Source of the DNA: Lachnospiraceae bacterium
GTDB taxonomy: Bacteria > Bacillota > Clostridia > Lachnospirales > Lachnospiraceae
DNA length: 64,000 bases
Assembly (NCBI GenBank): GCA_045590655.1
Contig: JAZNRI010000070.1
Span: forward strand, 101,100-165,099
Direction of reading: 5' to 3'
A program made the position numbers and the translations under genes. The notes below the pieces were generated by a model, which had not been told where the DNA came from, ran no database searches, and saw only the letters and a list, made by a program, of their open reading frames with translations. Below, piece by piece: positions 11,060 through 59,263 of the stretch (position 1 is the stretch's first letter; every line of letters begins with the position of its first letter).

Positions 11060-12052
11060 ATGAGCGAGTTGATATCGGTAGTAGTGCCTATTTATAATGT
11101 TGAAAAATATTTGACACGATGTTTGGAAGCCTTATTAAAACAAACATATACAAATTTAGAGATTATTCTTGTAGATGACGGTTCTAATGACGGTAGTTCT
11201 GCAATTTGCGATGAGTATGCCGAAAAAGACTCACGTATAAAAGTAATCCATAAAGAGAATGGTGGGTCCAGTTCTGCCAGAAATGCGGGAATTGAAGCAG
11301 CAACGGGTAAATATATTGGATTTTGCGACAGCGATGATTATCCGGAGCCGGATTTATACGAAAATCTTTATAAAATATTTTTAACTTATGAAGATGTTTA
11401 TATGGCACAATCCATGTCAAGTGATTATCTTGAAGACGGAACTATGGTAAAAGGCCCATACAAGGACAGCGGAGAGGTTAATTTTATTTCGCGGGAAGAG
11501 ATGTTTCGTATGTTGATGTTGCACGTGGGAGACAGCTCTTTTTGCACAAAACTCATTCGTGCTGATTATATGAAGCAATTTCGTTTCCCGGTCGGCCGTC
11601 TGAATGAAGATTTGGAATTGCTTTTGCGTATGAATAACGGTATTCCGGGTGTGTATTCCTGGGAACGAAACGGATACAATATCGAATTGCGGGACGGAAG
11701 TAATTCAAGAAATGTTTTTAGACAGTCTTTTTATGATGCAGTATTGGTAAACAGCAACAAAGCCTTTGAAATTATGGAGGAGCAATATCCGCAATATAGG
11801 GAGGAAACAGAACGTTTCTGTTACTTCCAACGTTTGGATTTTCTTTTACACATTCCCGTAGCGGAAATGAACAAAGAAAATGAAACTTATCAGAGGACAA
11901 TAACGGAGATTAAAAAGTCACGTAAGAAGATTAAAAAGAATCAATACCTTACAAAGAAGGAAAAGCGTAATTTGTTGATTCTGAGTTATGTTCCGAAACT
12001 TAGTAAACGATGCCATGGAATTATTATGAAATTAAAAAAGGGCAGAAGTTAA
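11060..12052 (+). CDS. Glycosyltransferase family 2
   Basis: SVVVPIYNVEKYL, LVDDGSND, NGGSSSARNAG, FCDSDD, NED. Confidence 0.92.
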   Translation: MSELISVVVPIYNVEKYLTRCLEALLKQTYTNLEIILVDDGSNDGSSAICDEYAEKDSRIKVIHKENGGSSSARNAGIEAATGKYIGFCDSDDYPEPDLYENLYKIFLTYEDVYMAQSMSSDYLEDGTMVKGPYKDSGEVNFISREEMFRMLMLHVGDSSFCTKLIRADYMKQFRFPVGRLNEDLELLLRMNNGIPGVYSWERNGYNIELRDGSNSRNVFRQSFYDAVLVNSNKAFEIMEEQYPQYREETERFCYFQRLDFLLHIPVAEMNKENETYQRTITEIKKSRKKIKKNQYLTKKEKRNLLILSYVPKLSKRCHGIIMKLKKGRS

Positions 12053-12084
12053 AATTTTACTTAAAAAGGAATGCTGATATCGAA

Positions 12085-13155
12085 ATGAAAGAACGTATTT
12101 ATATATGCCATACCTATTATCATGTATATATAACCATATTGAAAGAATTGGCAATGTCCAAAGCAGATTATGGTAAGGCAACTTTGATTTTGAGTAAAAT
12201 GTCCAATGATTTCGGTGAATTAAAGTCCAGAGCTGAAGCGGTAGGATTGTTTGAAGAAATTTTGGAGTTAGATGAGAAGAAAGATACTTTTTTTCCGGAG
12301 TTGGAAAAGTATAAAAAAGATAAGGGAAATATCTTGTTTAATATGATTTCCCGTATTCAGTATACCAAGAAGTTCGCAAAACTTCAGGAAAAGTATATTC
12401 ATATTCCGTTCAAAGAATATAAGCAGATTTATGTATATTGTGATGCCGATCCCATTGGATTGTATTTGAATCAAAAACGAATTCGTTATCATGCATTGGA
12501 AGACGGTTTGAATTCTTTGGTGTATATTGATCATGCGCGTTTTGCGAATCAGGGGGCATTCGGCTTGAAGGCTTTTATGTCAAAACAATTGAATTTGATT
12601 TTTGTCCAAAACGGATACGGAAAATATTGTATTGATATGGAAGTAAATGATATTGAATCCATTAAGTACCCATGTAAGTATTATATTGAACAAAGCCGAC
12701 AGGAACTGACAGAACGTTTAACATATGAAGATAAAGAATTACTGTTAAAGGTTTTTGTAAAGGATATAGATGAATTACAAAGTAAGATTGAGGAGTGTAA
12801 AGCGGGAAAGGGCTCTGTGTTGATTTTAACTGATCCCTTGTGTTCTTTGGATGTGAGAGAGCAGATTTTTAGGGATATCATAGATATGTATGAAGCAGAT
12901 TATCGTGTCTTTATCAAACCGCATCCGAGAGATGAACTGGATTATGCATCAGTATTTGCGGAATATGCGCAGTTTGACCCGGCTATGCCTATGGAGATTT
13001 TGAATTTGTTTGAAGATTTTCAATTTGATAAGGCGGTGGGAGTGCTTACGGAAATGAAAGCGGTAAAATTCGCAAAGGAAGCAATTCGGTTGGGACCTGA
13101 TTTTATGGATAAATATGAAGAGCCTGAAATCCACAGGCAGAATGAAAGGATATAA
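12085..13155 (+). CDS. Sialyltransferase-like GT-B enzyme (probable nonulosonate transferase)
   Basis: HALEDG (D/E-D/E-G) and IKPHPRD (HP) motifs of bacterial CMP-nonulosonate transferases. ATG 12085 preferred over the ORF-track start 12010. Confidence 0.65.
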   Translation: MKERIYICHTYYHVYITILKELAMSKADYGKATLILSKMSNDFGELKSRAEAVGLFEEILELDEKKDTFFPELEKYKKDKGNILFNMISRIQYTKKFAKLQEKYIHIPFKEYKQIYVYCDADPIGLYLNQKRIRYHALEDGLNSLVYIDHARFANQGAFGLKAFMSKQLNLIFVQNGYGKYCIDMEVNDIESIKYPCKYYIEQSRQELTERLTYEDKELLLKVFVKDIDELQSKIEECKAGKGSVLILTDPLCSLDVREQIFRDIIDMYEADYRVFIKPHPRDELDYASVFAEYAQFDPAMPMEILNLFEDFQFDKAVGVLTEMKAVKFAKEAIRLGPDFMDKYEEPEIHRQNERI

Positions 13156-13157: not shown

Positions 13158-14903
13158 ATGCTTAAAATATGGAAAAAAATGATGGTTTTATTGGATGGAA
13201 AGCAGAAAGCATATATGGTGCTTCTGGTATTTATGATGTTAATCGGTGCCATTTTGGAGGCTGTCAGTGTGGCAATAATCGTTCCGGTTATTACTGTAGT
13301 TGTTACACCTGACCAAATTCATAAAAATGCGATGGTGTCGGCATTGTATAATATTTTACCCGTCGAAGATGATAAGTCATTCGGAATCGCGGTAATGATT
13401 CTGCTAATCCTGGCATTTGTATTAAAAAATATATATATCTATGTTATGCAAAAAGTATTGTACCATTTTGTATATACCAACCAGTTCAGTACATCTGAGC
13501 GTATGATGAGAAATTACATGCTGCGAGGGTATGAGTTCTTTTTGAATGCCGATACTGCAGTAATTCAAAGAAGTATTACATCAGATGTAAATAATATGTA
13601 CGGTTTGATTCTTGCAATGTTACAGCTGATTTCGGAATGTATTGTTTTTGTAGTGCTTGCGGCAGTGCTTGTTATTACGGAACCCTGGATGACAATCATA
13701 ACGGCATCCCTGCTTGGAATTACGCTGTTAGCAATCAAAGCGGTATTAAAGCCGATTATGCGTAAAGCCGGTGAGGACAATCAGGATTATTACAGTAATT
13801 TATTTAAGTGGATTAACCAGACAATTACCGGTATTAAAGAAGTAAAAATCGGTTGCAGAGAAAAGTATTTTATTACAACATATTCTGAGTTTGGAAGAGG
13901 ATATGTAAATGCGGTTCAACGTTATACGCTTTATAACAATATGCCCAGACTCATTATAGAAACCGTGTGTGTTGCGGGCATGGTATCGTATTTCCTCTAT
14001 TTATTTGTAAGCGGACAGGAAATGGATAACTTTTTATCAACGCTTGCAGCATTCGGTGTGGCGCTGGCAAGATTAATGCCCTCAGCAAACCGAATTAATA
14101 ATTATTTGAATAATATTTCGTTTTTTGAACCGTTTTTTATGGGAGTTTCCGATAATTTACAGGAAGAAATCGATGGAAAAAATACGGATATTACCTCCTT
14201 GGAACCGGCAAGTGAGAAGTTGCCGTTTGCAAAGGAAATACAACTTTGTAATGTATCTTATAAGTATCCAAATACGGACAAATGGATATTAAAAGACTTG
14301 AATATGAGCATTCCGGCCGGAAGCGCAATCGGTATTGTTGGTGAAACCGGTTCCGGTAAGTCTACTTTGGTAGATGTTATGCTGGGCTTGCTTGCAATGC
14401 ATGAGGGGCAAATAAAGGTAGACGGTAAAGATATTTTCGAGGCTGACCACTATAAAAAATGGCTCAAGAATATTGGTTATATTCCGCAGACTGTTTTTAT
14501 GATAGATGACAGTATCCGCAAGAATGTGGCTTTTGGTATCCCGGAGGATGAGATTGATGACGAACGCGTGTGGGAGGCACTTAGGGAAGCGCAGTTAGAG
14601 CGGTTTGTGAAAGAACTTCCGGAAGGATTGGATACGGGAATCGGAGAACGCGGAATTCGTTTGTCAGGCGGACAACGACAGCGTATCAGTATTGCGAGAG
14701 CCTTATATGAGGATCCTTCGGTGTTGGTGCTGGATGAGGCAACGGCAGCATTGGATAATGGTACGGAAAAAGCAATTATGGATTCCATCAATCATTTGCA
14801 TGGTAAAAAAACATTGATTATTATTGCACATCGTTTACAGACAATCGAGAAATGTGATGCGGTTTACCGGATTGAAGGAACAAAGGCAGTACGCGAGAGG
14901 TAA
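13158..14903 (+). CDS. ABC exporter half-transporter, PglK/MsbA-like lipid-linked oligosaccharide flippase
   Basis: TM domain plus GETGSGKS, LSGGQRQR, LVLDE, IAHRL; lies amid glycosyltransferases. Confidence 0.85.
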   Translation: MLKIWKKMMVLLDGKQKAYMVLLVFMMLIGAILEAVSVAIIVPVITVVVTPDQIHKNAMVSALYNILPVEDDKSFGIAVMILLILAFVLKNIYIYVMQKVLYHFVYTNQFSTSERMMRNYMLRGYEFFLNADTAVIQRSITSDVNNMYGLILAMLQLISECIVFVVLAAVLVITEPWMTIITASLLGITLLAIKAVLKPIMRKAGEDNQDYYSNLFKWINQTITGIKEVKIGCREKYFITTYSEFGRGYVNAVQRYTLYNNMPRLIIETVCVAGMVSYFLYLFVSGQEMDNFLSTLAAFGVALARLMPSANRINNYLNNISFFEPFFMGVSDNLQEEIDGKNTDITSLEPASEKLPFAKEIQLCNVSYKYPNTDKWILKDLNMSIPAGSAIGIVGETGSGKSTLVDVMLGLLAMHEGQIKVDGKDIFEADHYKKWLKNIGYIPQTVFMIDDSIRKNVAFGIPEDEIDDERVWEALREAQLERFVKELPEGLDTGIGERGIRLSGGQRQRISIARALYEDPSVLVLDEATAALDNGTEKAIMDSINHLHGKKTLIIIAHRLQTIEKCDAVYRIEGTKAVRER

Positions 14904-16938: not shown

Positions 16939-17631
16939 ATGAATGCTGTAGCTATTATTACCGCCAGAGGCGGAAGTAAAAGAATACCCCGTAAAAATGT
17001 TAAGGAATTTCTTGGTAAACCGATTCTTTTATATTCTATCGAGGCAGCATTAAACAGTGGTATGTTTGAAGAAGTTATGGTGTCTACCGAGGATGAAGAA
17101 ATTGCAGAATTGGCCAGAAAGGCAGGGGCTGTGGTTCCGTTTATGCGAGGCAGTGAAAATGCCAATGACTTTGCCACTACCACGGATGTTTTGCTGGAGG
17201 TAGTAGAAGAATATGAGAAGCGGGGAAAGCACTTTGAGTATGGTTGTTGTATTTATCCTACGGCGCCGTTTGTAACGGCGGAAAAGTTAAGGGAAGGTAT
17301 GGAAAGGTTAGCGGCTTCCGATGCGGATACATTAATGCCTGTAGTGCCGTTTTCTTTTCCGCCGCAACGAGGAATGGTGATTAGGGAAGAAAAATTGCAA
17401 TTTATACAGCCTGAGCATGCTCTGACCCGTTCTCAGGATTTGGAGCACTGGTATCATGATGTGGGACAGTTTTACTGTTTTCGTACGGAGAATTTTAAAA
17501 GAAATAAAATCCTGACAGTAGGAAATGTATTGCCTTTGGTGGTGTCGGAACTGGAAGTGCAGGATATTGATACAATTTCGGATTGGAAAATTGCTGAAAT
17601 GAAGTATGAGGCAATGGTGGAGAAGAAGTAA
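16939..17631 (+). CDS. pseF: Pseudaminic acid cytidylyltransferase (CMP-Pse synthetase)
   Basis: TARGGSKRIPRKN, VSTEDEEIA, RSQDL..YHDVGQFY, QDIDT; pseC, pseI and pseG are also in the window. Confidence 0.8.
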   Translation: MNAVAIITARGGSKRIPRKNVKEFLGKPILLYSIEAALNSGMFEEVMVSTEDEEIAELARKAGAVVPFMRGSENANDFATTTDVLLEVVEEYEKRGKHFEYGCCIYPTAPFVTAEKLREGMERLAASDADTLMPVVPFSFPPQRGMVIREEKLQFIQPEHALTRSQDLEHWYHDVGQFYCFRTENFKRNKILTVGNVLPLVVSELEVQDIDTISDWKIAEMKYEAMVEKK

Positions 17632-24208: not shown

Positions 24209-25954
24209 ATGAAAAAGTATATGCAAAAGCATTGGTTTGAATATGTATATTCAGCATTGTTAACATGCATTGCCGCAGTAGGCATCTCCCTAATGTTTGG
24301 CTATATTCTGGAGACAAACGATGACGCGTTTTTGCGCAGTATTGTAAGCGGTAACTATACGGGTGAACCGGAAGCTCATCTGATTTATATTATGTATCCG
24401 CTGGGTTTTATTTTAAAAAGCTTATATTCGATACTTCCAAAAGTATACTGGTATGATTTTTATATGATCGGGATGCACTATATATGTATCTTTATGTTAT
24501 TGGTAAGAGTCGGAGAACAGTTTCAGATCAGAAGCAATAAGTTTCTTGGAATTACAGCATCTTTTATTGGTTTGATGTTACTGGATTTGCCCTATATTGT
24601 CATGCATCAATACACTGTATTGGCGGGGGTAATGATGTCTGTGGCAGTTTTTTGGATGGCAACCGCTAAAGAGACCGGCAACGGGAAATATTGGTACGAC
24701 AGAGTTGTTATAATTGTATTTTCGATACTTTGTTTGTGGACGCGAAAGCAGGTGTTTTTGCTTGCAGTCCCTCTGTTAGCACTCATTACTATTGTAAGGA
24801 TAATTAAAATCAGAAAAGATAAAAAAGCTATCAAAAATAAATTGCTATTTGGAGCGATCTTTTCAATTGTTGTATTAGGTTCTTTTGTGACAGATAAGGT
24901 TGCATATAGTGATTCTGAATGGAAGGATTTTCTTGTGTATAATGAAGCAAGAACGGATCTCTATGACTTCTATGGTGTGCCGTCTTTTGACTATTATCAG
25001 GATAGGTATGAGAAACTGGGACTGGATTATGGCGATTGGATTGTAATGCAAAATTATAATACAAAGCTGGCGTCGGATTTGTCGTTAGATAATGTTGTGG
25101 AATTGGCAGATTTGTCAGAGCAAAAGTGGGTAGAAGGATTTCAATACACCAATATGCTCCATAAAATGATCTACATTGTTGTAAACAATATGTATACAAA
25201 TCCGGTACAACCCATCGGTTTGTTATTAACGGTTTTGTATGTGCTTGCCTTGATTAATTGCTATAAAAAAGACAAGAGAATCAGCTTTTTATCAGTTTGC
25301 GCAATGTTGCTTTTTGAAGCGGCAGTTGTGGGATATTTTGTATGGCAAGGAAGATTTTTAGAGAGAATATCATATGGTTTTTATTTAATGCAAACAGTTT
25401 ATCTGTTTGGGATTCTTCTATATGATATTAAAGAAGTAAAAATTTTCACAAAGAAAAATGTCTTCTGGTGTGTTGTTGGTAGTGCATTAGTTGTACTGTT
25501 TTGTGGTACTGTGGGATTGCAACGTGTGCGTACAACATTAGATAATCAGGCATATATCGAGCAGAACTGTTCGGCATGGGAAACGTTAAATCAGTATTTC
25601 AGAGAATACAATGAAGTGAGCTATTGCATTGATACTACTTCGTTTGCATATTTTACGGATTGGATGTTTTGTGATGAGATGACTGAGACGAATAATGTGA
25701 TTCGCTTGGGTACATGGACAATGTATAGTCCTTTGGATAAGAAACACGATGGGGAGAATGATTTGCTTTCGTTGCTTGAAAGCGGACAGTGTTATTACGT
25801 GCAGGATACACGTAAAGGACAGGACTGGATACATAGCTTTTGGGAAAGTAAGGGCTATGATATTGAAATAGAAGTGGTTGATACAATTACAATACACAAT
25901 GGTTGTGTATTTGAAATTATTGATATGTCAAATATAAAAAAGGTGAAAAAGTGA
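24209..25954 (+). CDS. Polytopic membrane protein, GT-C-like
   Basis: TM1 followed by ETNDD acidic motif; two TM clusters around an extracellular loop. Confidence 0.45.
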   Translation: MKKYMQKHWFEYVYSALLTCIAAVGISLMFGYILETNDDAFLRSIVSGNYTGEPEAHLIYIMYPLGFILKSLYSILPKVYWYDFYMIGMHYICIFMLLVRVGEQFQIRSNKFLGITASFIGLMLLDLPYIVMHQYTVLAGVMMSVAVFWMATAKETGNGKYWYDRVVIIVFSILCLWTRKQVFLLAVPLLALITIVRIIKIRKDKKAIKNKLLFGAIFSIVVLGSFVTDKVAYSDSEWKDFLVYNEARTDLYDFYGVPSFDYYQDRYEKLGLDYGDWIVMQNYNTKLASDLSLDNVVELADLSEQKWVEGFQYTNMLHKMIYIVVNNMYTNPVQPIGLLLTVLYVLALINCYKKDKRISFLSVCAMLLFEAAVVGYFVWQGRFLERISYGFYLMQTVYLFGILLYDIKEVKIFTKKNVFWCVVGSALVVLFCGTVGLQRVRTTLDNQAYIEQNCSAWETLNQYFREYNEVSYCIDTTSFAYFTDWMFCDEMTETNNVIRLGTWTMYSPLDKKHDGENDLLSLLESGQCYYVQDTRKGQDWIHSFWESKGYDIEIEVVDTITIHNGCVFEIIDMSNIKKVKK

Positions 25955-26490
25955 AAAAGGTTATTGAAAACGACAAACTGTATCTTCGGAAGATGGAGTA
26001 TTCAGACACGGATTATATTGTAAAGTGGAGAAATTCGGATTTTGTCAGAACGCATTTTATCTATCAGGAATTGTTTACAAAAGAGTCTCATGAAAACTGG
26101 ATTCGCACTATGATAGAAACCGGTAAAGCAGATCAGTTGATTATCTGCATTAAAGGCGAAAACGGACAAATTGATATTCCGGTTGGAAGCGTCTATATCA
26201 GAGATATTGACAATACGCATAATAAGGCCGAGTACGGGATATTTATCGGAGAAGAGAGCGCACGAGGAAAAGGTATCGGAAGCCAGACAGCAGCGCTTAT
26301 GATAAAATACTGTTTTGAACAGTTGAAATTACATCGCTTGTTTTTACGTGTTTTTGCAGACAACAAACAGGCAATTCGAAGTTATGAAAAAGCCGGCTTT
26401 GTACAGGAAGCATATTTAAAAGATGATGTCAGGATTCAAGGACAGTATAAGGATATTGTTTTAATGGGAATATTAAACCCGGAGGATTAA
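25951..26490 (+). CDS. GNAT (RimL/PseH-like) N-acetyltransferase
   Basis: VKWRNS..VR, AEYGIFIGE..RGKGIG, N.QAIRSYEKAGF.QE; GTG start. Confidence 0.85.
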   Translation: MKKVIENDKLYLRKMEYSDTDYIVKWRNSDFVRTHFIYQELFTKESHENWIRTMIETGKADQLIICIKGENGQIDIPVGSVYIRDIDNTHNKAEYGIFIGEESARGKGIGSQTAALMIKYCFEQLKLHRLFLRVFADNKQAIRSYEKAGFVQEAYLKDDVRIQGQYKDIVLMGILNPED

Positions 26491-47900: not shown

Positions 47901-48071
47901 CAGGATTCTTTAAATGTAAGTACGTTGAACGGATATAAGATTTGGCTTGCACAGTATGCATCACAGCCTACTTATTCCGGAAGGTATGATATGTGGCAGT
48001 ATACCGATAAGGGTAAAGTAAACGGTATCAGTACAAGTGTTGATATGAATATCAGCTATTTAGGATATTAA
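44973..48071 (+). CDS. Type II membrane-anchored GH25 lysozyme with Ig-like (Big_2) domains and cell-wall-binding repeats
   Basis: Acidic N-terminus; one TM (~aa 197-220); VTWSSSDEKIATV and IATVDDKGVVTGV Ig repeats; GKTYFFDENG repeat; GIDVSKWQG, IRCGYRG, PIFIDTE. Confidence 0.9.
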   Translation: MIKKDLNLEELEWSDEEEFQVDEESVYRSTIETLQAEDVDAVDVAATKVIPVADINSQVKEEAGNDAVQELLDFIDGQDEKASDVTENIEGVEEEPDLGATKVIPVVVPMVADVEDVTLSGELADELGDLTYHDEDVPKVQKTKTAPKKHPSQAREHASVKKASGKPNVKTGNGKKIKVQHKKKNAFEKFILKLSWMDAVIGITGVLAAVILVFVLGFWMNNNSKVKDLGEFTTIGMQLSEMDTIGRNGINRIVSTSGGDVIGEAFIPSEEGEEEAVMVSVNFTSIEKDLKIKFSDKTNDKLLTGVAFELEVVTPSNETLTWIDEDKDGLIYQEGLKGGAYMITIKSVGDFSFPTDPTKVMVKDKISYQVINVLDEIKTEDEINVAVEDTQDKDNIEEETLLADTVKWVPSEKKVTGGADGYAQVDKTTITDPMTLTSASLGGYRKVDNISEPGITIETGQSKTVTLTGSEEPDKYSKYEYSWSASEGLTVSGSGRNATITAGNTAGNGTVTCTVIKTKVTTENPGESSSEETTENAPAPAAETVTDTHTFAVEIKAPVATGYVKGVSLDSTSLEVKLGATATLKATVAGEGTGYDTAVTWSSSDEKIATVKDGVITPVAAGEATITVTTAGKDKDGKTGTFTATCKVVVKAAGDLTLKLNAEKAEVLVGETYTIVPTVENYQKEKTVKYTVDKKDIATVDDKGVVTGVAKGTAVVTVTTTENGKDGKPLTAKVTITVKSNPKKDTKTLLKDASGKQVYIKDANGKYVQAKWADYYTATAFYIEAEPTYTYYGWQTLNGKTYFFDENGKKVTGEQVISGVKYNFASDGSLSMNGGVLGIDVSKWQGTIDWNAVKSSGISFVVIRCGYRGSSTGVLVKDPMFEANIKGATKAGLKVGLYFFSQAVNEKEAVEEASMAIALAKDYKISYPIFIDTEWTSGGRANGISKDTRTAVCKAFCETIKSAGYTPGVYACKSWYQDSLNVSTLNGYKIWLAQYASQPTYSGRYDMWQYTDKGKVNGISTSVDMNISYLGY

Positions 48072-48162: not shown

Positions 48163-49356
48163 TTATTTTTTATAATAAGCAATTAATTTCTTTACTGCGG
48201 TAATTACGGATTCTACGTCTTCATCTGTCATGGAATAGAAGAGGGGAATGCTTAAAATACGTTCGTAAAGAGCCTCTGCCTTAGGACATAAACCTTTATG
48301 ATAACCTAGTTTTTCGTAATGAGAGTGATAGTAAACCGGGATATAGTGGACCTGGGGACAAACATTTTCGGCAACAAGCGCATTGAAAAATTCGCGTCTG
48401 GTACAGTTGAGTTTCGCCAAATCCAATTGTAAAATATATAAGTGTCTCGTTGTGTCTGATTCGGAAATTTCTTTCTGGATGATGATTTCCGGTGTGTCAG
48501 CAAACGCTTCATTATAGCGAGCTACAATTTCTTTGCGTCGTTTGGAAAAGGCCGGTAACTTGTCTAACTGGCTTGCAACTAAGGCACATTGGAAATCAGT
48601 CATACGATAATTGTATCCTAATTCCACCTGCTCATAATACCAGGGATCATCGCAGGGATTGTTCATTTCGTCCATATTACGTGTGATGCCGTGAGCGCGG
48701 AGACGTAATAACTTGCGGTATAAGTTTTCGTCATTGGTAGTGACTGCACCACCTTCACCGGAGGTGATGGTTTTAACCGGATGAAAACTGAAAGTAGTCA
48801 TATCTGCTATACTTCCTACTCCTTGTCCGTTGTACTTGGTGCCGATTGAATGAGCAGCATCTTCGATTAGGGTTAAGTTGTATTCTTTGCAGATAACGCG
48901 GATTTCATCCAATTCTACTGCTTGTCCCGTAAAATCTACAGCGACTACTGCTTTGGTTGCCGGAGTAATGCATGTCCGGATGGAAGCAGGAGAAATATTA
49001 TAGGTTTCGGGATTGATGTCGGCAAAAACAGGTTTTGCACCGCAATACAATGCGCAATTTGCTGATGCAGCAAATGTAATAGGTGTTGTAATGATTTCGT
49101 CACCGGGACCCAAATCAATGGCCATACAAGCGATGTGAAGCGCGGCGGTTCCGTTACTGACGGCAACAGCATATTTGGCGCCGGTTGTTTCACATAATTT
49201 GGCTTCGAATTCACTTACTTTTGGCCCACAAGTTACGTAACCGCTTCTTAATACTTCGGCAACGGCCTGAATATCGGTTTCATCAATGTATTGTCTGCCG
49301 TAAGATATTTTGGTGTCTCTGACGGGGGTTCCGCCAAGAATTGCCGGTTTGTTCAT
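48163..49356 (-). CDS. pseC: UDP-4-amino-4,6-dideoxy-N-acetyl-beta-L-altrosamine transaminase
   Basis: YGRQYI...DI.AV..VL, SFHPVKTITSGEGG, LGYNYRMTD, QVHYIP. ATG 49356 has a GGAG RBS. Confidence 0.85.
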   Translation of the reverse strand: MNKPAILGGTPVRDTKISYGRQYIDETDIQAVAEVLRSGYVTCGPKVSEFEAKLCETTGAKYAVAVSNGTAALHIACMAIDLGPGDEIITTPITFAASANCALYCGAKPVFADINPETYNISPASIRTCITPATKAVVAVDFTGQAVELDEIRVICKEYNLTLIEDAAHSIGTKYNGQGVGSIADMTTFSFHPVKTITSGEGGAVTTNDENLYRKLLRLRAHGITRNMDEMNNPCDDPWYYEQVELGYNYRMTDFQCALVASQLDKLPAFSKRRKEIVARYNEAFADTPEIIIQKEISESDTTRHLYILQLDLAKLNCTRREFFNALVAENVCPQVHYIPVYYHSHYEKLGYHKGLCPKAEALYERILSIPLFYSMTDEDVESVITAVKKLIAYYKK

Positions 49357-49460
49357 AAAACTCCGTTCTGAAGCGAATTTAATTTGTTGAATGATTTGGT
49401 TGAATGTTTGGATGCGATAATCTGTGTCGCTTCTGCACAAGAGTATCTTTCAACTTCTTA

Positions 49461-49489
49461 AGTATAAGTCAACTTAAGGCTTGTTTCAA
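49461..49489 (-). promoter_or_regulatory. sigmaA promoter of pseC
   Basis: TTGAAA, 17 nt, TATACT on the minus strand. Confidence 0.6.
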
Positions 49490-49498
49490 TCATTTTCA

Positions 49499-49536
49499 TT
49501 GTTTTTTTGACAGTTACTATGTATAATAACTATAGT
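49499..49536 (+). promoter_or_regulatory. sigmaA promoter(s) for the membrane protein-pseI-pseG operon
   Basis: TTGTTT-17-TATAAT (49499-49527) overlapping TTGACA-18-TATAGT (49507-49536). Confidence 0.55.
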
Positions 49537-49552
49537 GAAAGAGGTGTAGATT

Positions 49553-50590
49553 ATGCTTCAGATTCTTATGGCGACATTTTGGTTGTTGCTTGTTCCTTTT
49601 GGAAGCGGACTTTGGATTACATCCAAACTGCCCAAGGAGCATCAAAGTATAGGGATGATTATTTTGAACGGCTATCTGGTAACGATAGCCTTCTTTCAGT
49701 GCTTTTACTTAGGATTTCTTGTGGCAGAGAGTACATCTTTTGAGAATTTGACGTTGGTGTTTGCCATTTTTATTCTTTTATTTACAGGTGTTTCTGCGTG
49801 GTTTGGGCGTAAGATTGTAAAAGAATGTTTTGCCGGGATGAAATGCAGAGAAGCACTTGCTTTAAAGATTGTTTTTGTATTGTTTTTGGTAATACAAGTA
49901 GTGATGCGTCTTACGCAACAGGTTTTTGACGGAGATGATGCTTTTTATATTGCGACTGCAGCAAACTCTTATACCAGCGGAACTATGAATTATGTGCAAC
50001 CGTACACGGGAATGGTATCTAACAATATTGATATGCGCCATGCATTTGCAGCGGCACCGACATGGCTTGCTTTTTTATCCAAGGTTACAATGATTCATCC
50101 TGCAATTATGGGGCACACTGTTCTTGCGCCTGTTTTAATTGTATTGCATTACTTGGTAATTCTTCAAATCGGAGAATTGCTTTTTAAGAATAAGAAGAAT
50201 GAAAAGTATCTGTTTGCTTCTCTTGTTTCGTTGTTTAATATGTATGGGTATGTCAGTATTTATACTGCCCAGACTTTCTTTTTGACAAGAACATGGCAGG
50301 GGAAAAGTATTTTTGCTAATTTGTTCCTTCCTGTGTTACTTTTGTGCCTTTTGTGGCTGGGGGATAAAACCAAAGAGGTGAAAATAGAGAATGTATTGTA
50401 TGTGGTGGCCGGTATTATTATGTTTGCCGGAAGTTCCATGACAACAATGGCAGTGGCGTTATTGCCTATGGTTTTTATGTTGGGAATTACTTTTCTGACT
50501 ATTTATCGCAGGGAACCGTTGATGCTGTTAAAAGGAGTTTTGACCTGCATTCCTGTTGGTTTGGTAGGGATATTATATATGTTGTCGTAA
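49553..50590 (+). CDS. Polytopic membrane protein (DUF6077-like, GT-C N-terminal half-like)
   Basis: TMs; DGDDAFY acidic motif; RTWQGKS. Family name recalled, not searched. Confidence 0.5.
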   Translation: MLQILMATFWLLLVPFGSGLWITSKLPKEHQSIGMIILNGYLVTIAFFQCFYLGFLVAESTSFENLTLVFAIFILLFTGVSAWFGRKIVKECFAGMKCREALALKIVFVLFLVIQVVMRLTQQVFDGDDAFYIATAANSYTSGTMNYVQPYTGMVSNNIDMRHAFAAAPTWLAFLSKVTMIHPAIMGHTVLAPVLIVLHYLVILQIGELLFKNKKNEKYLFASLVSLFNMYGYVSIYTAQTFFLTRTWQGKSIFANLFLPVLLLCLLWLGDKTKEVKIENVLYVVAGIIMFAGSSMTTMAVALLPMVFMLGITFLTIYRREPLMLLKGVLTCIPVGLVGILYMLS

Positions 50591-50624
50591 AAACAGTAGT
50601 GGATAAGTGTTGTGGAGGCTTTGG

Positions 50625-52262
50625 ATGAAAACTTTTAAAATAAACAATCGAGTTATAGGTGAAGGATATCCTGCGTATATCATTGCGGAAATGTCGGCAA
50701 ATCATGCCGGCAGTATTGAGCGTGCCAAGGAAATCATTCGTGTGGCAAAAGAATCAGGCGCAGATTGTGTGAAGATTCAAACCTATACACCGGACACTTT
50801 GACGATTGATTGTGATAACGAATATTTTGCCATTACTGACGGGACGTGGAAGGGCGAAAACCTTTACGGTTTATACGGCAAAGCCTATACACCGTTGGAG
50901 TGGCAGGCAGAATTGTATGCAGAAGCAAAAAGAATCGGGATTGATTTTTTCTCGACGCCTTTTGATAATGCCACTGCAGATTTCTTGGAAAATATGGGGA
51001 TGGAATTTTATAAAATTGCATCTTTTGAGATGATTGATTTGGATTTTCTGCGTCATGTTGCGGCTAAGCAGAAGCCGATGATTGTATCGACGGGTATGTC
51101 TACCCTAGAGGAGATGAAAGAGGCTGTTAATGCTATTTATGAGACCGGAAATCATCAGCTGGCCCTTTTAAAATGTTCCAGCGCTTATCCGGCGGTGTCG
51201 GATGAAATGAATTTAAAAACCATTCAGCATATGAAGGAAGTGTTTGATATTCCCATTGGTCTTTCGGACCATTCTATGGGGTCTCTTGGTGCTGTAACGG
51301 CGGTTGCCTTGGGTGCCTGCATCATTGAGAAACATTTTTGCCTGAGCAGGGAAATTGAGAATCCGGACGCATCGTTTTCGATGACGCCGGAAGAGTTTAA
51401 ACAAATGGTGGAAGATGTTAGGGCTGTGGAACGGGCTATGGGTAAGCCTACTTACGGAATGGCCCCTTCGGAAAAAAATAATATGGTATTTCGACGATCT
51501 TTGTTTGCGGTAGCAGATATTAAAGAAGGTGAAGTTTTTACACGGGATAATATTCGCAGTATTCGTCCCGGATATGGGGTAAAACCGAAGTATCAGCAGG
51601 ATTTTCTTACTATGTGCGCAGGGAGAGATATTAAGCGCGGTGAACCTCTTCAGTTTGAACAGGTTCAAAAAGGTGCGGTATTGTTCCTTACAAATAACTC
51701 TAATACGGAAGAATTTTATAAGAAATTATGCGGCTGTGAACAACGGGTATATCGCTTTACCAATAAGTTGACTTTGGATATTATAAAAGAATTAGACCCC
51801 TCTTTTGTGGTGAGTTTCAATTATAAATATATTGTACCGGCAGATGTATTGGACTACATGAAAGGACGTATCATCAATCTGCATACTTCCTATTTGCCTT
51901 ATAATAAGGGGGCTGCGCCCAATTTCTTCTCGTTTTATGAAAATACGCCCAAAGGTGTATCTATTCATGAGATGGTTGCAGGATTGGATGAAGGAGCAAT
52001 TCTTTTGCAGAAAGAAGTTCCGATGAACGCGGAGAGTGAAACGTTTGCAACTTCTTACGATAAGCTGATGGCTGCGATAATGGAGTTGTTTTTTGATAAT
52101 TGGACTGCGTTAAAAGCCAGGAAAATAAATGCTTCCAAGCAAGTCGGGGAAGGTACGTATCATACCTCCAAAGAGTTGACTGCAATTCGAAATAAAACGG
52201 ATTTTGCATGGAATGAAAACATAGCACAAGTTTTGGACAGGATACAAAATGACGGGAATTAG
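50625..52262 (+). CDS. pseI: Pseudaminic acid synthase-SAF fused to a C-terminal N-formyltransferase
   Basis: AEMSANH, KIASFE, STGM, LKCSSAYP, SDHS, IEKHF, RRSL (SAF); then INLHTSYLP.NKG..GVSIH..GLDEG. ATG 50625 has a GGAGG RBS. Confidence 0.88.
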   Translation: MKTFKINNRVIGEGYPAYIIAEMSANHAGSIERAKEIIRVAKESGADCVKIQTYTPDTLTIDCDNEYFAITDGTWKGENLYGLYGKAYTPLEWQAELYAEAKRIGIDFFSTPFDNATADFLENMGMEFYKIASFEMIDLDFLRHVAAKQKPMIVSTGMSTLEEMKEAVNAIYETGNHQLALLKCSSAYPAVSDEMNLKTIQHMKEVFDIPIGLSDHSMGSLGAVTAVALGACIIEKHFCLSREIENPDASFSMTPEEFKQMVEDVRAVERAMGKPTYGMAPSEKNNMVFRRSLFAVADIKEGEVFTRDNIRSIRPGYGVKPKYQQDFLTMCAGRDIKRGEPLQFEQVQKGAVLFLTNNSNTEEFYKKLCGCEQRVYRFTNKLTLDIIKELDPSFVVSFNYKYIVPADVLDYMKGRIINLHTSYLPYNKGAAPNFFSFYENTPKGVSIHEMVAGLDEGAILLQKEVPMNAESETFATSYDKLMAAIMELFFDNWTALKARKINASKQVGEGTYHTSKELTAIRNKTDFAWNENIAQVLDRIQNDGN

Positions 52263-53307
52263 AGCGGACGGAAACAATCAAATAGGGATTGGGCATGTTA
52301 TGCGGTGCCTGACAATAGCTGACGCGTTGAAAAAAATCGGGGAGGATGTAATGTTCTTTACGGCGGACCATGGGTGTGAAGAAATGATTTCCGACCGGGG
52401 CTTTCGATGTCATGTGCTTGAAACTGCGTTTGATGATATGGAATCGGAGTTAGCATTGCTACAGACTGCGATGACTGAGTGGGGAGTTGACCGGTTACTG
52501 ATAGATTCATATTATGTAACGGAAGACTATTTGAAGGATTTGCGGGAGCAGGCTGTCACGGTCTATCTGGATGATGTGGACAGCTTTCCGTATCCGGTGG
52601 ATTTGCTGGTGAATTACAATGTATTTGCCGAGGCTTTAGATTATCCATACGGTATTGAATATGAAGAAAACGGAAAGAACGGTAGTATTGTAAAAGAAGA
52701 TATCACACTTGTGCTTGCAGGGCCGAAGTATGCACCGGTGCGTAAAGAATTTGCTGCTTGCCGGACCAAAATAAACGATGCTGTTTCGGAGATACTGATT
52801 ACATTGGGCGGAAGTGATGCATATAATCTGTCATATAAGATAAGTAAGGCACTTTTAAAAGCTACGGATGCCCGTTTAAACGTTGTGTGCGGACCTTTTA
52901 ACCTGCATAAGCAGGCTTTGCATGAGTTGGCCGCAAATGAGCCGAGAGTGATGGTTTATGAAAATGTGAAAGATATGTGGAATCTAATGCGGAAATGTGA
53001 TTTGGCAGTCTCTGCTGCCGGCTCTACTATGTGTGAACTGGCTGTGGCAGGTGTGCCTGCGATAACATTTTCCTTTGTGGAGAATCAAAAAAGGATTGCA
53101 GAGGCTTTCGGTAAGGAAAAGGCAGCGGTTACAATCGGACATTATGAGCCGAAAACAGAAGAACTTTTTTTGCGAGTGATAGCGGATGAATCGGAGATGC
53201 TTATATCTGATAAGGAAAAACGTGAGGCTCTTGTACAAAGAGCTTGCGAAATGGTGGATGGTCAAGGCGCCATACGTATTGCACGGGCGATTGTGGGATA
53301 TAAATAA
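52249..53307 (+). CDS. pseG: UDP-2,4-diacetamido-2,4,6-trideoxy-beta-L-altropyranose hydrolase
   Basis: IRADG..IGIGHVMRC, IDSY, YLDD, GPKYA.VR.EF, TLGGSD, SAAGST..E, ENQ, VDGQGA.RI. Confidence 0.88.
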   Translation: MTGIRADGNNQIGIGHVMRCLTIADALKKIGEDVMFFTADHGCEEMISDRGFRCHVLETAFDDMESELALLQTAMTEWGVDRLLIDSYYVTEDYLKDLREQAVTVYLDDVDSFPYPVDLLVNYNVFAEALDYPYGIEYEENGKNGSIVKEDITLVLAGPKYAPVRKEFAACRTKINDAVSEILITLGGSDAYNLSYKISKALLKATDARLNVVCGPFNLHKQALHELAANEPRVMVYENVKDMWNLMRKCDLAVSAAGSTMCELAVAGVPAITFSFVENQKRIAEAFGKEKAAVTIGHYEPKTEELFLRVIADESEMLISDKEKREALVQRACEMVDGQGAIRIARAIVGYK

Positions 53308-54276: not shown

Positions 54277-55356
54277 ATGAGAACTTATCTTGTGACAGGC
54301 GGTGCCGGATTTATCGGTTCCAACTATATTCACTATATGTTTGAAAAATACGGCGATGATATCCGCATTATTAATGTGGATGCTTTGACATATGCAGGTA
54401 ACCTTGAAAATTTGAAAGCAGTAGAGAATCGTTCTAATTATACATTTGTAAAAGCAGATATTACAGACAAAGATGCAATCGGTAAGATTTTTGCGGAGAA
54501 TGATATCGACAGAGTGGTGCATTTTGCGGCAGAAAGTCACGTAGACAGAAGCATCCGTAATCCGGAAGTCTTCGTGAAGACTAATGTGATTGGTACAGCG
54601 GTTATGCTTAACTGTGCGAAGGCAGCTTGGGAATTGCCTGACGGTGGATTTAAGGAAGGCAAGAAATTCCTTCATGTGTCTACGGATGAGGTATATGGTT
54701 CATTGCCTGATGATGAGAATGCATTCTTTTATGAGACATCACCTTACGATCCTCACTCGCCGTATTCGGCAAGTAAAGCAGGTTCGGACATGCTTGTGAA
54801 GTCTTATATGGATACCTATAAGTTCCCGGCAAACATTACAAATTGTTCAAATAATTACGGACCGTTCCAGTTTCCTGAGAAGTTGATTCCGTTGATTATC
54901 AACAATGCGCTTCAGGGCAAGAAGTTACCGGTATACGGTGATGGCAAGAACGTGCGTGACTGGTTATATGTAAGAGACCATGCGAAAGCCATTGATATGG
55001 TTCAGGAAAAGGGTAAACTTTTTGAAACATATAACGTAGGCGGTCATAACGAAAAACAGAATATCCAGATTATTGAAATTATTCTGGAAACTTTACAGGA
55101 AATGCTTCCTGATAATGATCCCCGTAAGGCGCATGTAAGCAAGGAATTAATTACTTACGTGGAAGACCGTAAGGGCCATGACAGACGTTATGCCATTGCA
55201 CCGGACAAGATTCGTGCAGACCTCGGCTGGGAGCCTGAAACAATGTTTAAGGACGGCATTAGGCTGACCATACAGTGGTATTTTGAGAACGAAGACTGGA
55301 TGAAGCGTGTAACCAGCGGTGACTACCAGAAATACTACGAAGAAATGTATCAATAA
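54277..55356 (+). CDS. rmlB: dTDP-glucose 4,6-dehydratase
   Basis: TGGAGFIGSN, D.LTYAGN, AAESHVDRSI, VSTDEVYG, SPYSASK, NNYGP.QFPEK, DR.GHDRRYA. Confidence 0.97.
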   Translation: MRTYLVTGGAGFIGSNYIHYMFEKYGDDIRIINVDALTYAGNLENLKAVENRSNYTFVKADITDKDAIGKIFAENDIDRVVHFAAESHVDRSIRNPEVFVKTNVIGTAVMLNCAKAAWELPDGGFKEGKKFLHVSTDEVYGSLPDDENAFFYETSPYDPHSPYSASKAGSDMLVKSYMDTYKFPANITNCSNNYGPFQFPEKLIPLIINNALQGKKLPVYGDGKNVRDWLYVRDHAKAIDMVQEKGKLFETYNVGGHNEKQNIQIIEIILETLQEMLPDNDPRKAHVSKELITYVEDRKGHDRRYAIAPDKIRADLGWEPETMFKDGIRLTIQWYFENEDWMKRVTSGDYQKYYEEMYQ

Positions 55357-55415
55357 AATTATAAATGGGGACGGTGAACGCCGTTCCCATTCAGTGCGTA
55401 TAAAAGGAGACAAAA

Positions 55416-56285
55416 ATGAAGGGAATTATTCTTGCAGGAGGGTCCGGAACCAGACTTTATCCCCTGACCAAAGCGATTTCAAAACAGATTATGCCGGTAT
55501 ATGACAAGCCGATGATTTACTATCCTTTGTCTATCTTAATGTTGGCAGGAATTCAGGACATTTTAATTATTTCCACTCCGAGGGATTTGCCTGTTTTTAA
55601 GGATTTGTTCGGAGACGGTTCGCAGCTTGGACTTCGTATGGAATACGCTGTGCAGGAGTATCCGAGAGGTTTGGCGGATGCTTTTATCATCGGTGCTGAT
55701 TTTATCGGTGATGACAGCGTGGCACTGATTCTTGGAGATAATATTTTTTACGGACAGAGCTTCTCGAGAGTATTGCGTGAAGTGGTAGCGCAGGAGAAGG
55801 GCGCAACGATTTTCGGATACTATGTGCGTGATCCCAGAGAGTATGGTGTGGTTGAATTTGATGAAAACGGAAAGGCATTATCTATCGAAGAGAAACCGGA
55901 ACATCCGAAGAGTAATTATGCGGTGCCGGGCTTGTATTTCTACGATAATGACGTAGTGGAAATTGCCAAGAATGTAAAACCTTCTGCGCGCGGTGAAATC
56001 GAAATCACCAGCATCAACAATGAATATTTAAGACGTGGTGAGTTGAATGTAAGAACCTTGGGACGCGGTTTTGCATGGTTGGATACGGGAAATCATGATG
56101 CGCTTTTGGATGCTTCTGATTTTGTGGCTGCTTTTCAGAAACGCCAGGGATTATACATTTCCTGTATTGAAGAAATTGCGTTTAAACGTGGTTTTATTAC
56201 CAGAGAACAGTTGCTGGCTTTGGCAGAGCCTTTGATGAAAACTGCTTACGGCCAGTATTTAGTTGAGGTCGCAAACGGATTATAA
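55416..56285 (+). CDS. rmlA: Glucose-1-phosphate thymidylyltransferase
   Basis: [47 protein letters not shown]. Confidence 0.97.
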
Positions 56286-56310
56286 AAGTTGTGAAGGCAG
56301 AGGTGCAACG

Positions 56311-58197: not shown

Positions 58198-58231
58198 GAC
58201 AAGAGAGATCTTTGAGAGAAAGGAAACGGAT

Positions 58232-59245: not shown

Positions 59246-59263
59246 AAAGGTTTAGAAACTGGT

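What the first reader, a model, noticed from the sequence alone, without database searches (positions are those of the whole stretch)
50625..52262. PseI fused to an N-formyltransferase: predicted 7-formamido pseudaminic acid
Seen: a complete PseI-SAF reads without a stop, at ~51670, into a ~195-aa formyltransferase with INLHTSYLP and GLDEG intact; pseG overlaps the stop. A weak AAGGT plus in-frame TTG at 51681 could allow an internal start. Known: stand-alone PseJ-type formyltransferases replace PseH to give Pse5Ac7Fo. The formylation step precedes PseG and the synthase step follows it, so the fusion joins non-consecutive steps. Inferred: this organism makes CMP-Pse5Ac7Fo, perhaps with PseG in a complex. 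I do not recall this fusion being characterised.
Basis: partly seen in the sequence, partly recalled or inferred. Interest (0 to 1): 0.75.

Follow-up and report, generated by a model that had tools for sequence, protein, structure and literature searches.

The report
Fused pseudaminic acid synthase–formyltransferase gene
A gut Lachnospiraceae bacterium encodes one 61.5 kDa protein that joins the enzyme making the nine-carbon sugar pseudaminic acid to a PseJ-type formyltransferase, so it probably makes the 7-N-formyl form of that sugar; the fusion is real and common in this family but untested.

Summary
ORF 50625..52262 (+) encodes 545 aa (61.5 kDa). It is a complete PseI (NeuB TIM barrel plus SAF domain; TIGR03586 460 bits against a cutoff of 340) joined, with about 6 residues between domains, to a complete PseJ-type N-formyltransferase. 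The formyltransferase part matches PDB 6ci2 PseJ at E 8.5e-34, and the N418/H420/D455 triad is invariant. pseG overlaps the stop codon by 14 nt.

The junction is not an assembly artefact. Contigs from independent public runs cross it without indels. More than 120 protein clusters share the architecture, and so do 51 of the best 80 species-representative genome loci, almost all Lachnospiraceae.

Related genomes keep separate, adjacent or overlapping pseI→pseJ→pseG genes. The fusion is therefore stop-codon loss between neighbouring genes. A few genomes extend it to a PseI-PseJ-PseG triple fusion.

Three relatives have compact pseB-pseC-pseF-pseI::J-pseG operons with no GNAT. This supports PseJ replacing PseH, and hence Pse5Ac7Fo as the product.

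The proposed internal TTG start is not conserved (12 of 54 loci).

Three caveats apply:
- No PseB lies in the window.
- A borderline PseH-like GNAT lies 25 kb away.
- There is no biochemistry.

This is a new domain architecture built from known enzymes, and of moderate interest.

The parts
50625..52262 (+). pseI::pseJ fusion ORF, 545 aa, 61.5 kDa (GGAGG at 50612-50616 upstream of the ATG)
50625..51665 (+). PseI domain (aa 1-347): NeuB TIM barrel at aa 37-275 and SAF domain at aa 290-346
   Evidence: TIGR03586 460.6 bits against cutoff 340.25. C. jejuni PseI 8h2c scores 323.7 bits, aligned 17-343 to 18-344 of 349. Model TM 0.92.
51651..51668 (+). Junction (aa 343-348, QFEQVQ): about 6 residues between the end of the PseI match and the first strand of the formyltransferase; no variable linker
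51669..52259 (+). PseJ-type N-formyltransferase domain (aa 349-545, 22.4 kDa)
   Evidence: PDB 6ci2 PseJ at E 8.5e-34. TM 0.87 to 6ci4/6edk. Stand-alone homologs begin 1-3 residues before the ILFLTNN strand.
51873..51899 (+). INLHTSYLP motif with catalytic Asn418 (51876-51878) and His420 (51882-51884)
   Evidence: Invariant in A1 and A2
51981..51995 (+). GLDEG motif with catalytic Asp455 (51987-51989)
   Evidence: Invariant in A1 and A2
51681..51683 (+). In-frame TTG (Leu353), proposed as an internal start; not conserved
   Evidence: TTG in 12 of 54 fused loci, otherwise CTN/TTA
52249..53307 (+). pseG (UDP-sugar hydrolase); its start overlaps the fusion's stop by 14 nt
   Evidence: TIGR03590 195.6 bits against cutoff 153.55. 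pseG lies directly downstream in 43 of 51 fused loci.
48163..49356 (-). pseC aminotransferase (397 aa), transcribed divergently
   Evidence: TIGR03588 480.4 bits against cutoff 423.5; start checked
49553..50590 (+). DUF6077 membrane protein immediately upstream; syntenic in close relatives
16939..17631 (+). pseF (CMP-pseudaminic acid synthetase), 33 kb upstream
   Evidence: TIGR03584 295.5 bits against cutoff 205.7
12010..13155 (+). GT52/polysialyltransferase-like glycosyltransferase, candidate pseudaminyltransferase
   Evidence: Pfam PF07922 and PF07388. Contiguous with pseF-pseI::J-pseG in L003, L007, L013 and others.
13158..14903 (+). PglK-like ABC flippase next to the GT52-like gene
   Evidence: synteny
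25951..26490 (+). GNAT acetyltransferase, borderline PseH-like. It is a possible competitor for the same amine, but more likely serves another amino sugar.
   Evidence: TIGR03585 91.6 bits against cutoff 93.1. Best PDB matches are SpeG and AAC(6'); PseH 4xpk matches only at 4e-5. It is followed by an ArnC-like GT2 here and in L045.

Best explanation
The ORF encodes a bifunctional enzyme of the pseudaminic acid (Pse) pathway.

Proposed pathway:
1. PseB, not in the window, and PseC (48163-49356, minus strand) make UDP-4-amino-4,6-dideoxy-beta-L-AltNAc.
2. The C-terminal PseJ-type domain transfers a formyl group from N10-formyl-tetrahydrofolate to the 4-amino group. This takes the place of PseH acetylation.
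3. PseG, translated from the overlapping downstream gene, removes UDP.
4. The N-terminal PseI domain condenses the free sugar with PEP to give Pse5Ac7Fo.
5. PseF (16939-17631) activates it to CMP-Pse5Ac7Fo.
6. A GT52-like transferase and a PglK-like flippase then probably put it into a cell-wall polysaccharide.

Origin of the fusion: it arose in a Lachnospiraceae lineage by loss of the stop codon between adjacent, overlapping pseI and pseJ genes. In a few lineages it was extended to PseI-PseJ-PseG.

What is shown: domain identities, intact catalytic residues, a real junction, the evolutionary origin and the operon context.

What is inferred: substrate, product, a physical complex with PseG, and the glycan destination.
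For: Domain identity:
- PseI scores above the equivalog cutoff, matches C. jejuni PseI 8h2c at 323.7 bits and superposes at TM 0.92.
- The formyltransferase domain is closest to PseJ 6ci2/6ci4 (E 8.5e-34; TM 0.87). 6ci4 is PseJ soaked with UDP-4-amino-4,6-dideoxy-L-AltNAc.
- VioF, ArnA and Rv3404c are far weaker (E about 1e-10 to 1e-13; TM about 0.65).
- N418, H420 and D455 are invariant across fused and stand-alone homologs down to 34% identity.

Real junction: independent contigs and an RNA contig cross it.

Distribution and origin:
- 51 of 80 GTDB loci carry the fusion.
- In unfused relatives, pseI and pseJ are separated by -10 to +33 nt, in the same order pseF-pseI-pseJ-pseG.
- Operons pseB (531-545 bits)-pseC-pseF-pseI::J-pseG with no GNAT occur in L014, L015 and L058.
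- Triple fusions exist, as do PseG-PseJ fusions.

Literature: PseJ is credited with the Pse5Ac7Fo route, and PseF accepts Pse5Ac7Fo (PMC11040635).
Against: - There is no biochemical or glycan-structure evidence for any member of this clade.
- PseB is absent from the 64-kb window, and the rest of the contig could not be read.
- A GNAT scoring 91.6 against the PseH cutoff of 93.1 is in the window. Homologs of it lie within 10 kb of the fusion in 7 of 51 loci, so Pse5Ac7Ac or a mixture is possible.
- Elsewhere, PseJ-like domains are fused to GNAT or bona fide PseH domains. The 'FT replaces PseH' rule is therefore not universal.
- The model's pTM is only 0.69, so the relative orientation of the two domains is not defined and channelling is speculative.
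Confidence: 0.7

Rival explanations
1. Neutral fusion without functional coupling. The two domains work as independent enzymes exactly as the separate proteins do. The fusion is a by-product of overlapping genes losing a stop codon and gives no channelling or complex with PseG.
For: - Unfused relatives have pseI and pseJ overlapping or up to 33 nt apart, so one small mutation fuses them.
- The steps joined are non-consecutive.
- pTM of 0.69 gives no confident interdomain interface.
- The PseJ domain is fused to many different partners, which suggests opportunistic fusion.
Against: - The fusion is retained across a clade that has diverged to about 62% identity, with a gapless junction.
- It was extended to include PseG in some lineages.
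- PseG-PseJ fusions arose independently, pointing to selection for co-localising late steps.
- This rival concerns coupling only and is compatible with the same product.
Confidence: 0.3
2. The formyltransferase domain acts on a different amine. This could be the dTDP- or GDP-4-amino-6-deoxyhexose made by the WecE-like or LegC/PglE-like aminotransferases in the window, or N5 or a later Pse intermediate. In this reading the GNAT at 25951 is the true PseH, so the organism makes Pse5Ac7Ac.
For: - The window holds three 4-aminotransferases and three N-acyl transferases.
- The GNAT is within 1.5 bits of the PseH cutoff.
- The best NCBIfam formyltransferase hit for the domain is a dTDP-4-amino-4,6-dideoxyglucose formyltransferase, though only 68.7 bits against a cutoff of 238.
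- WecE-like genes lie within 10 kb of the fusion in 24 of 51 loci.
Against: - PseJ is by far the closest characterised relative by sequence and fold.
- The domain keeps the pseI-pseJ-pseG slot even in loci without WecE or GNAT.
- GNAT-free complete Pse operons exist.
- The GNAT is consistently paired with ArnC/AglJ-like polyprenyl-phosphate GT2 genes.
- A separate WbkC/Fmt-like formyltransferase (82-951) is available for the other amino sugars.
Confidence: 0.12
3. Two proteins come from one ORF. An internal start at TTG 51681, with AAGGTG upstream, yields a free PseJ alongside the fusion or a processed PseI.
For: An SD-like AAGGTG lies 5 nt upstream of an in-frame TTG. Stand-alone PseJ proteins start at the equivalent position.
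Against: - Leu353 is TTG in only 12 of 54 fused loci, and no other start codon is conserved at codons 346-355.
- The AAR-GGN sequence is explained by the conserved Lys-Gly residues.
- The fused clade must therefore function as a fusion in most members.
Confidence: 0.07
4. The junction is an assembly or sequencing artefact, or the formyltransferase domain is a decayed, inactive remnant.
For: None found. The source is a metagenome-type contig.
Against: - Five independent runs and an RNA contig cross the junction with no indels.
- The same architecture occurs in more than 120 clusters and 51 species genomes.
- 27 residues of the formyltransferase domain, including the catalytic triad, are invariant in 54 sequences.
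- The domain is modelled at pLDDT 92-97.
Confidence: 0.01

Closest known systems
PseJ, stand-alone sugar N-formyltransferase of Anoxybacillus kamchatkensis (PDB 6ci2, 6ci4, 6ci5, 6edk)
   Same: - It is a short single-domain Formyl_trans_N fold of about 190-200 aa with the N/H/D triad.
- The aligned 172 residues match at E 8.5e-34, and the model superposes at TM 0.87.
- It sits in a Pse gene cluster in the slot of PseH.
- It shares the C-terminal Q...G-x-G-T/S-x-H motif.
   Different: Here it has no start codon of its own. It is joined directly to the C-terminus of the PseI SAF domain. Its activity and substrate are untested.
PseI (pseudaminic acid synthase), C. jejuni 8h2c; NeuB family
   Same: It has the full-length TIM barrel plus SAF domain. 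It scores 323.7 bits at 47% identity and TM 0.92, and is above the TIGR03586 equivalog cutoff.
   Different: It carries an extra 197-aa C-terminal catalytic domain. Its presumed substrate is the 4-formamido rather than the 4-acetamido sugar.
ArnA (bifunctional UDP-Ara4N formyltransferase / UDP-GlcA decarboxylase)
   Same: It is a precedent for a sugar N-formyltransferase fused to another enzyme of the same pathway that catalyses a non-adjacent step (established knowledge; NCBIfam hit NF005998).
   Different: The partner domain, the pathway, the Fmt-type two-subdomain formyltransferase and the domain order all differ. Sequence similarity is only distant (E about 1e-10).
LgrA formylation (F) domain of linear gramicidin synthetase
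   Same: It is the second-closest solved relative (E about 1e-23; TM about 0.3 normalised to the query over about 193 aligned residues). It is another case of a PseJ-like domain recruited into a fusion.
   Different: It is N-terminal to an NRPS A domain and formylates a carrier-bound amino acid, not a nucleotide sugar.
PseG-PseJ fusions (e.g. Selenomonas infelix ATCC 43532 WP_006693103.1) and GNAT-PseJ / PseJ-PseH didomain proteins
   Same: They carry the same PseJ-type domain (38-49% identity) fused to another Pse-pathway enzyme.
   Different: The partner differs. PseG-PseJ joins consecutive steps. As far as the searched literature shows, these fusions are also uncharacterised, and database names give only one of the domains.

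Membership tests
PseI (pseudaminic acid synthase, NeuB family) | Score above the curated equivalog cutoff of TIGR03586 over the full model | tested here: met
   460.6 bits against 340.25, covering model positions 2-327 of 327. The NeuB_NnaB model is below its own cutoff at 312 against 400.
PseI (pseudaminic acid synthase, NeuB family) | NeuB TIM barrel followed by a SAF (antifreeze-like) domain, with a fold like solved PseI | tested here: met
   Pfam NeuB and SAF. AF2 model against 8h2c gives TM 0.92 at 47% identity.
PseI (pseudaminic acid synthase, NeuB family) | Genomic association with pseB, pseC, pseG and pseF | tested here: inconclusive
   pseC, pseG and pseF are in the window, but pseB is not. 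Relatives have all of them in one operon.
PseI (pseudaminic acid synthase, NeuB family) | Condenses 2,4-diacylamido-2,4,6-trideoxy-L-altrose with PEP | not testable with these tools
   An enzyme assay is needed.
PseJ-type sugar N-formyltransferase | Formyl_trans_N core with catalytic Asn-His-Asp | tested here: met
   PF00551 at 56.5 bits against 26.1. N418, H420 and D455 are invariant.
PseJ-type sugar N-formyltransferase | Closest characterised relative is PseJ; short form of about 190-200 aa without the Fmt C-terminal domain | tested here: met
   6ci2 at E 8.5e-34 against VioF/ArnA at about 1e-10. TM 0.87. The domain is 197 aa and co-linear with stand-alone homologs from their first residues.
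PseJ-type sugar N-formyltransferase | Occupies the PseH position in a Pse cluster that has no PseH | tested here: inconclusive
   This holds in L014, L015 and L058. In the window, a GNAT just under the PseH cutoff lies 25 kb away.
PseJ-type sugar N-formyltransferase | Formylates UDP-4-amino-4,6-dideoxy-beta-L-AltNAc with N10-formyl-THF | not testable with these tools
   An enzyme assay is needed.
PseG (UDP-sugar hydrolase), downstream gene | Score above the TIGR03590 cutoff | tested here: met
   195.6 bits against 153.55.
PseH (GNAT N-acetyltransferase), candidate 25951-26490 | Score above the TIGR03585 cutoff | tested here: not met
   91.6 bits against 93.1. The best PDB relatives are SpeG and AAC(6'); PseH 4xpk matches only at 4e-5.

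The most novel reading that the evidence does not exclude
The PseI::PseJ fusion, with PseG bound or (in some lineages) covalently fused, forms a dedicated late-stage Pse metabolon. Because NeuB-family enzymes are domain-swapped dimers, the formyltransferase hangs directly off the SAF domain that caps the partner subunit's active site. The formamido intermediates could then be passed on without release. This might impose formyl-specific synthesis even where a PseH-like acetyltransferase coexists. As a result, abundant gut Lachnospiraceae would display Pse5Ac7Fo, a sugar otherwise known from pathogens such as Pseudomonas aeruginosa (PMC11040635), on their cell-wall polysaccharide.
Probability: 0.15. 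Interest if true: 0.6.

Novelty: new variant of a known kind. Interest (0 to 1): 0.42.

Why it matters
Pseudaminic acids are surface sugars studied mostly in pathogens, where the N-acyl groups shape antigenicity and phage or immune recognition. This locus predicts that a whole clade of gut commensal Lachnospiraceae makes the 7-N-formyl variant and builds it into a cell-wall polysaccharide. The clade includes Acetatifactor and Waltera, and some members are cultured.

The series separate genes → PseI-PseJ → PseI-PseJ-PseG is a clean natural example of stepwise pathway fusion, and it gives Rosetta-stone evidence that the late Pse enzymes associate.

There are two practical points. Public annotation names these proteins only 'pseudaminic acid synthase', or only 'PseG' for the Selenomonas-type fusion, so the formyltransferase activity goes unrecorded. 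A single-polypeptide PseJ+PseI, or PseJ+PseG+PseI, could also simplify chemoenzymatic synthesis of Pse5Ac7Fo, which so far has been made chemically (PMC11040635).

Tried and rejected
- Assembly artefact: rejected on reads and contigs and on homolog architecture.
- Truncated formyltransferase: the Pfam match starts only at profile position 72, which suggested truncation. Stand-alone PseJ proteins are co-linear from their first residues, so this was rejected.
- Conserved internal start: rejected.
- Fusion found outside Lachnospiraceae: the proteins of about 530-547 aa in the representative search looked like more PseI-PseJ fusions, but BLAST against the window references showed seven of them are PseG-PseJ.
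- Locating PseB of this genome: walking the contig with the look-up of encoding contigs from the window's edge genes failed, because those proteins are not on record.
- PglF-like 623-aa dehydratase (30988-32859) as a PseB substitute: it scores only 187 bits against a cutoff of 407.75 for PseB, so it is not accepted.
- Primary PseJ paper (ACS Chem Biol 2018): not in the library. PseJ function is therefore cited from PDB titles and PMC11040635.
- Literature on the fusion: searches found nothing.
- Solved relative of the GT52-like protein: none found.
- FT289 neighbour count of 27: discarded as unreliable, because the fusion ORF itself can cross-hit that reference. Only the five separately labelled ORFs are used.
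Full report
**1. Observation**

It runs from 50607 (GTG) or 50625 (ATG) to 52262 on the + strand. The ATG at 50625 follows a GGAGG 8 nt upstream and gives 545 aa, 61.5 kDa. That is the modal length of its homologs.

Pfam finds NeuB (aa 37-275), SAF (290-346) and Formyl_trans_N (384-482). NCBIfam places the N-terminal part in the PseI equivalog TIGR03586, at 460.6 bits against a cutoff of 340.25.

The motifs IINLHTSYLP (aa 416-425) and GLDEG (aa 453-457) are present. So are the AAGGT at 51670-51674, the in-frame TTG at 51681, and the pseG start at 52249, which overlaps the stop by 14 nt.

**2. The junction is real**

Assembled contigs of independent public runs cross position ~51670 with substitutions only and no indels. 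These are X1 51456-52397, X2 51621-52397, X3 51572-52360, X5 51516-52063 and X6 49400-52723. A metatranscriptome contig from X17 (51600-51823) also crosses it.

The best 120 protein clusters found with the full-length query all carry NeuB+SAF+Formyl_trans_N, mostly at 540-557 aa. Their alignment is gapless through the junction.

**3. What the two halves are**

- The N-terminal 347 aa align end to end with C. jejuni PseI (8h2c; 323.7 bits; residues 17-343 against 18-344 of 349).
- The C-terminal 197 aa are closest to the solved formyltransferase PseJ of Anoxybacillus kamchatkensis (6ci2/6ci4, E 8.5e-34). Next come the LgrA formylation domains (about 1e-23). Other sugar formyltransferases such as Rv3404c, VioF and ArnA are much more distant (1e-13 to 1e-10).
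- An AlphaFold2 model built on 54 homologs has mean pLDDT 89.1 and pTM 0.69, with 92-97 in the formyltransferase domain.
- Foldseek matches its two halves to PseI 8h2c (TM 0.92) and to PseJ 6ci4/6edk/6ci2 (TM 0.87). Entry 6ci4 is PseJ soaked with UDP-4-amino-4,6-dideoxy-L-AltNAc.
- Stand-alone PseJ-like proteins start 1-3 residues before the ILFLTNN strand, which is fusion residue ~350. The formyltransferase domain is therefore complete, and only about 6 residues separate it from the end of PseI.
- N418, H420 and D455, the Asn-His-Asp triad of this superfamily, are invariant across fused and stand-alone sequences down to 34% identity.

**4. Where the fusion came from**

The best 80 are almost all Lachnospiraceae. 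They include Acetatifactor spp. and A. muris MAGs, and the cultured Waltera hominis CLA-AA-H183, Clostridium sp. CAG:411, Roseburia sp. 1XD42-69 and Dorea sp. 5-2.

I called ORFs in all loci and compared them by BLAST with the window's proteins. The results were:
- 51 loci have the fusion.
- 43 of the 51 have pseG directly downstream, and 29 of the 51 have pseF directly upstream.
- More distant relatives keep separate pseI (~345 aa) and pseJ (~200 aa) genes in the same order pseF-pseI-pseJ-pseG. The distance between them is -10 to +33 nt.

The fusion is therefore a stop-codon loss between adjacent, often overlapping genes.

In a neighbour-joining tree of PseJ domains, all but one of the fused sequences, together with the window, fall in one clade. 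L058 lies outside it, which may reflect a second event or tree noise. The one 'stand-alone' sequence inside the clade, L060, is cut by a contig end.

Within the clade, L001, L002 and L015 carry an ORF of about 874-897 aa. Its last ~350 aa align with the window's PseG (37% identity, E 5e-65), making a PseI-PseJ-PseG triple fusion.

**5. Pathway context**

In the window:
- pseC (48163-49356, minus strand), a DUF6077 membrane protein, pseI::J and pseG sit together.
- They are followed by rmlB, rmlA, rmlC and a Wzm/Wzt transporter.
- pseF lies 33 kb upstream (16939-17631), near a GT52/polysialyltransferase-like gene and a PglK-like ABC flippase.
- In relatives, GT52, the flippase, a GT2, pseF, pseI::J and pseG are contiguous. 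This ties the GT52-like enzyme and the flippase to Pse use.

No bona fide pseB is in the window. The 623-aa PglF-like dehydratase scores only 187 bits against a PseB cutoff of 407.75. I could not read the rest of the contig.

Relatives do show complete, compact operons: pseB (531-545 bits)-pseC-pseF-pseI::J-pseG, with no acetyltransferase gene, in L014, L015 and L058. This is the strongest contextual support for the PseJ domain standing in for PseH.

According to PMC11040635, PseJ accounts for the Pse5Ac7Fo route, and C-terminal activation by PseF tolerates Pse5Ac7Fo.

**6. Complications**

- A GNAT at 25951-26490 scores 91.6 on the PseH model, whose cutoff is 93.1.
  - Its best solved relatives are SpeG and AAC(6'), and PseH matches only at 4e-5.
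  - Here and in L045 it is flanked by ArnC/AglJ-like polyprenyl-phosphate glycosyltransferases.
  - Homologs lie within 10 kb of the fusion in 7 of 51 loci.
- The window encodes three sugar 4-aminotransferases: PseC, a WecE-like one and a LegC/PglE-like one. It also encodes three N-acyl transferases: the PseJ domain, this GNAT, and a 289-aa WbkC/Fmt-like formyltransferase at 82-951.
  - One-to-one pairing is the simplest reading.
  - On that reading the GNAT serves another amino sugar. This is inference.
- PseJ-like domains elsewhere are fused to GNATs, including one bona fide PseH domain (P0228, 154 bits).

A mixture of Pse5Ac7Ac and Pse5Ac7Fo therefore cannot be excluded.

**7. Internal start**

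Among 54 fused loci, Leu353 is TTG in 12 and CTN/TTA in the rest. No other in-frame start codon is conserved at codons 346-355. The AAR-GGN sequence is explained by the conserved Lys-Gly. The fusion protein itself must be the functional form in most members.

**8. Wider picture**

An exhaustive search with the formyltransferase domain found 125 clusters (50% identity) at E ≤ 1e-30. The best 150 representatives divide as follows:

| Architecture | Count |
|---|---|
| Stand-alone | 98 |
| GNAT-FT | about 31 |
| PseG-FT (e.g. Selenomonas infelix ATCC 43532 WP_006693103.1, named only as PseG) | 8 |
| PseI-FT | 3 |
| FT-GNAT/PseH | 3 |

There are also single cases with a cytidylyltransferase, a methyltransferase or a TIM-barrel domain.

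The PseJ module is thus fused often and to different partners within Pse clusters. PseI-PseJ is one Lachnospiraceae-specific outcome.

**9. Comparison and novelty**

Both domains are clear members of known families, PseI and PseJ-type formyltransferases. The architecture PseI-PseJ, and PseI-PseJ-PseG, is not mentioned in any paper I could search. Public records name the protein only 'pseudaminic acid synthase'. ArnA is the nearest conceptual precedent: a sugar formyltransferase fused to a non-adjacent pathway step.

I rate this a new variant of a known kind. It is real, widespread in one family, mechanistically predictable and experimentally untested.

Interest is 0.42. It is useful for annotation, for commensal glycobiology and for enzymatic Pse5Ac7Fo synthesis, but it is not surprising in kind.

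Noticed in passing
window 82-951 (+): A second, 289-aa Fmt/WbkC-like formyltransferase. Its best solved relative is GDP-perosamine N-formyltransferase 5vys, at 1.5e-16. Homologs sit inside the Pse module in relatives: between pseF and pseI::J in L026 and L047, and near GT52 in L032, L049 and L057. Its substrate is unknown.
   Followed up: partly
window 25951-26490 (+), followed by 26493-27431: A GNAT 1.5 bits under the PseH equivalog cutoff, always next to an ArnC-like polyprenyl-phosphate GT2 (also in L045). It may acetylate the product of the WecE-like (23057-24184) or PglE/LegC-like (32874-34004) aminotransferase rather than the PseC product.
   Followed up: partly
L069, L071, L073, L076, L087 (Dorea sp. 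5-2); proteins P0123-P0155, P0228: GNAT-PseJ didomain proteins (about 350-390 aa) occupy the pseJ slot between pseI and pseG. P0228 combines a PseJ-like domain with a bona fide PseH domain. It is unexplained why two N-acyl transferases for what should be one amine are fused.
   Followed up: partly
P0144 cluster (181 members; Selenomonas infelix ATCC 43532 WP_006693103.1), P0175, P0177, P0181, P0235, P0247, P0257: PseG-PseJ fusions (about 527-547 aa) in other taxa. Sources name them only as PseG hydrolase, so the formyltransferase half goes unannotated.
   Followed up: partly
L001 1593-4286, L002 1760-4453, L015 9170-11794: A PseI-PseJ-PseG triple fusion: three consecutive pathway activities in permuted order in one polypeptide.
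   Followed up: yes
window 12010-14903 and 16939-19221: A GT52/polysialyltransferase-like gene, a PglK-like ABC flippase, pseF and a GtrII-like membrane glycosyltransferase. This module is contiguous with pseI::J-pseG in L003, L007 and L013, but lies 33 kb away from them in the window, which indicates a rearrangement of the polysaccharide locus.
   Followed up: partly
window 15977-16903, 19236-20159, 26493-27431, 36928-37902: Four GtrB/PgfS/ArnC/AglJ-like polyprenyl-phosphate glycosyltransferases, next to large membrane proteins with no family hit. This suggests several extracytoplasmic side-chain decoration systems on a rhamnose-type cell-wall polysaccharide (rmlA/B/C and Wzm/Wzt at 54277-60604).
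   Followed up: no
window 44973-48071 and 56263-57528: Two surface proteins whose homologs carry GH25 muramidase domains, plus Big_2 repeats in the larger one (Pfam on L005 and L006). They are embedded in the polysaccharide locus and syntenic in close relatives.
   Followed up: no
window 30988-34004: A membrane-anchored PglF/CapD-like UDP-GlcNAc 4,6-dehydratase (623 aa) followed by a LegC/PglE-like aminotransferase. This looks like a bacillosamine-type pathway running in parallel with the Pse pathway. A 626-aa homolog lies about 5.6 kb upstream of pseF-pseI-pseJ-pseG in L080.
   Followed up: no
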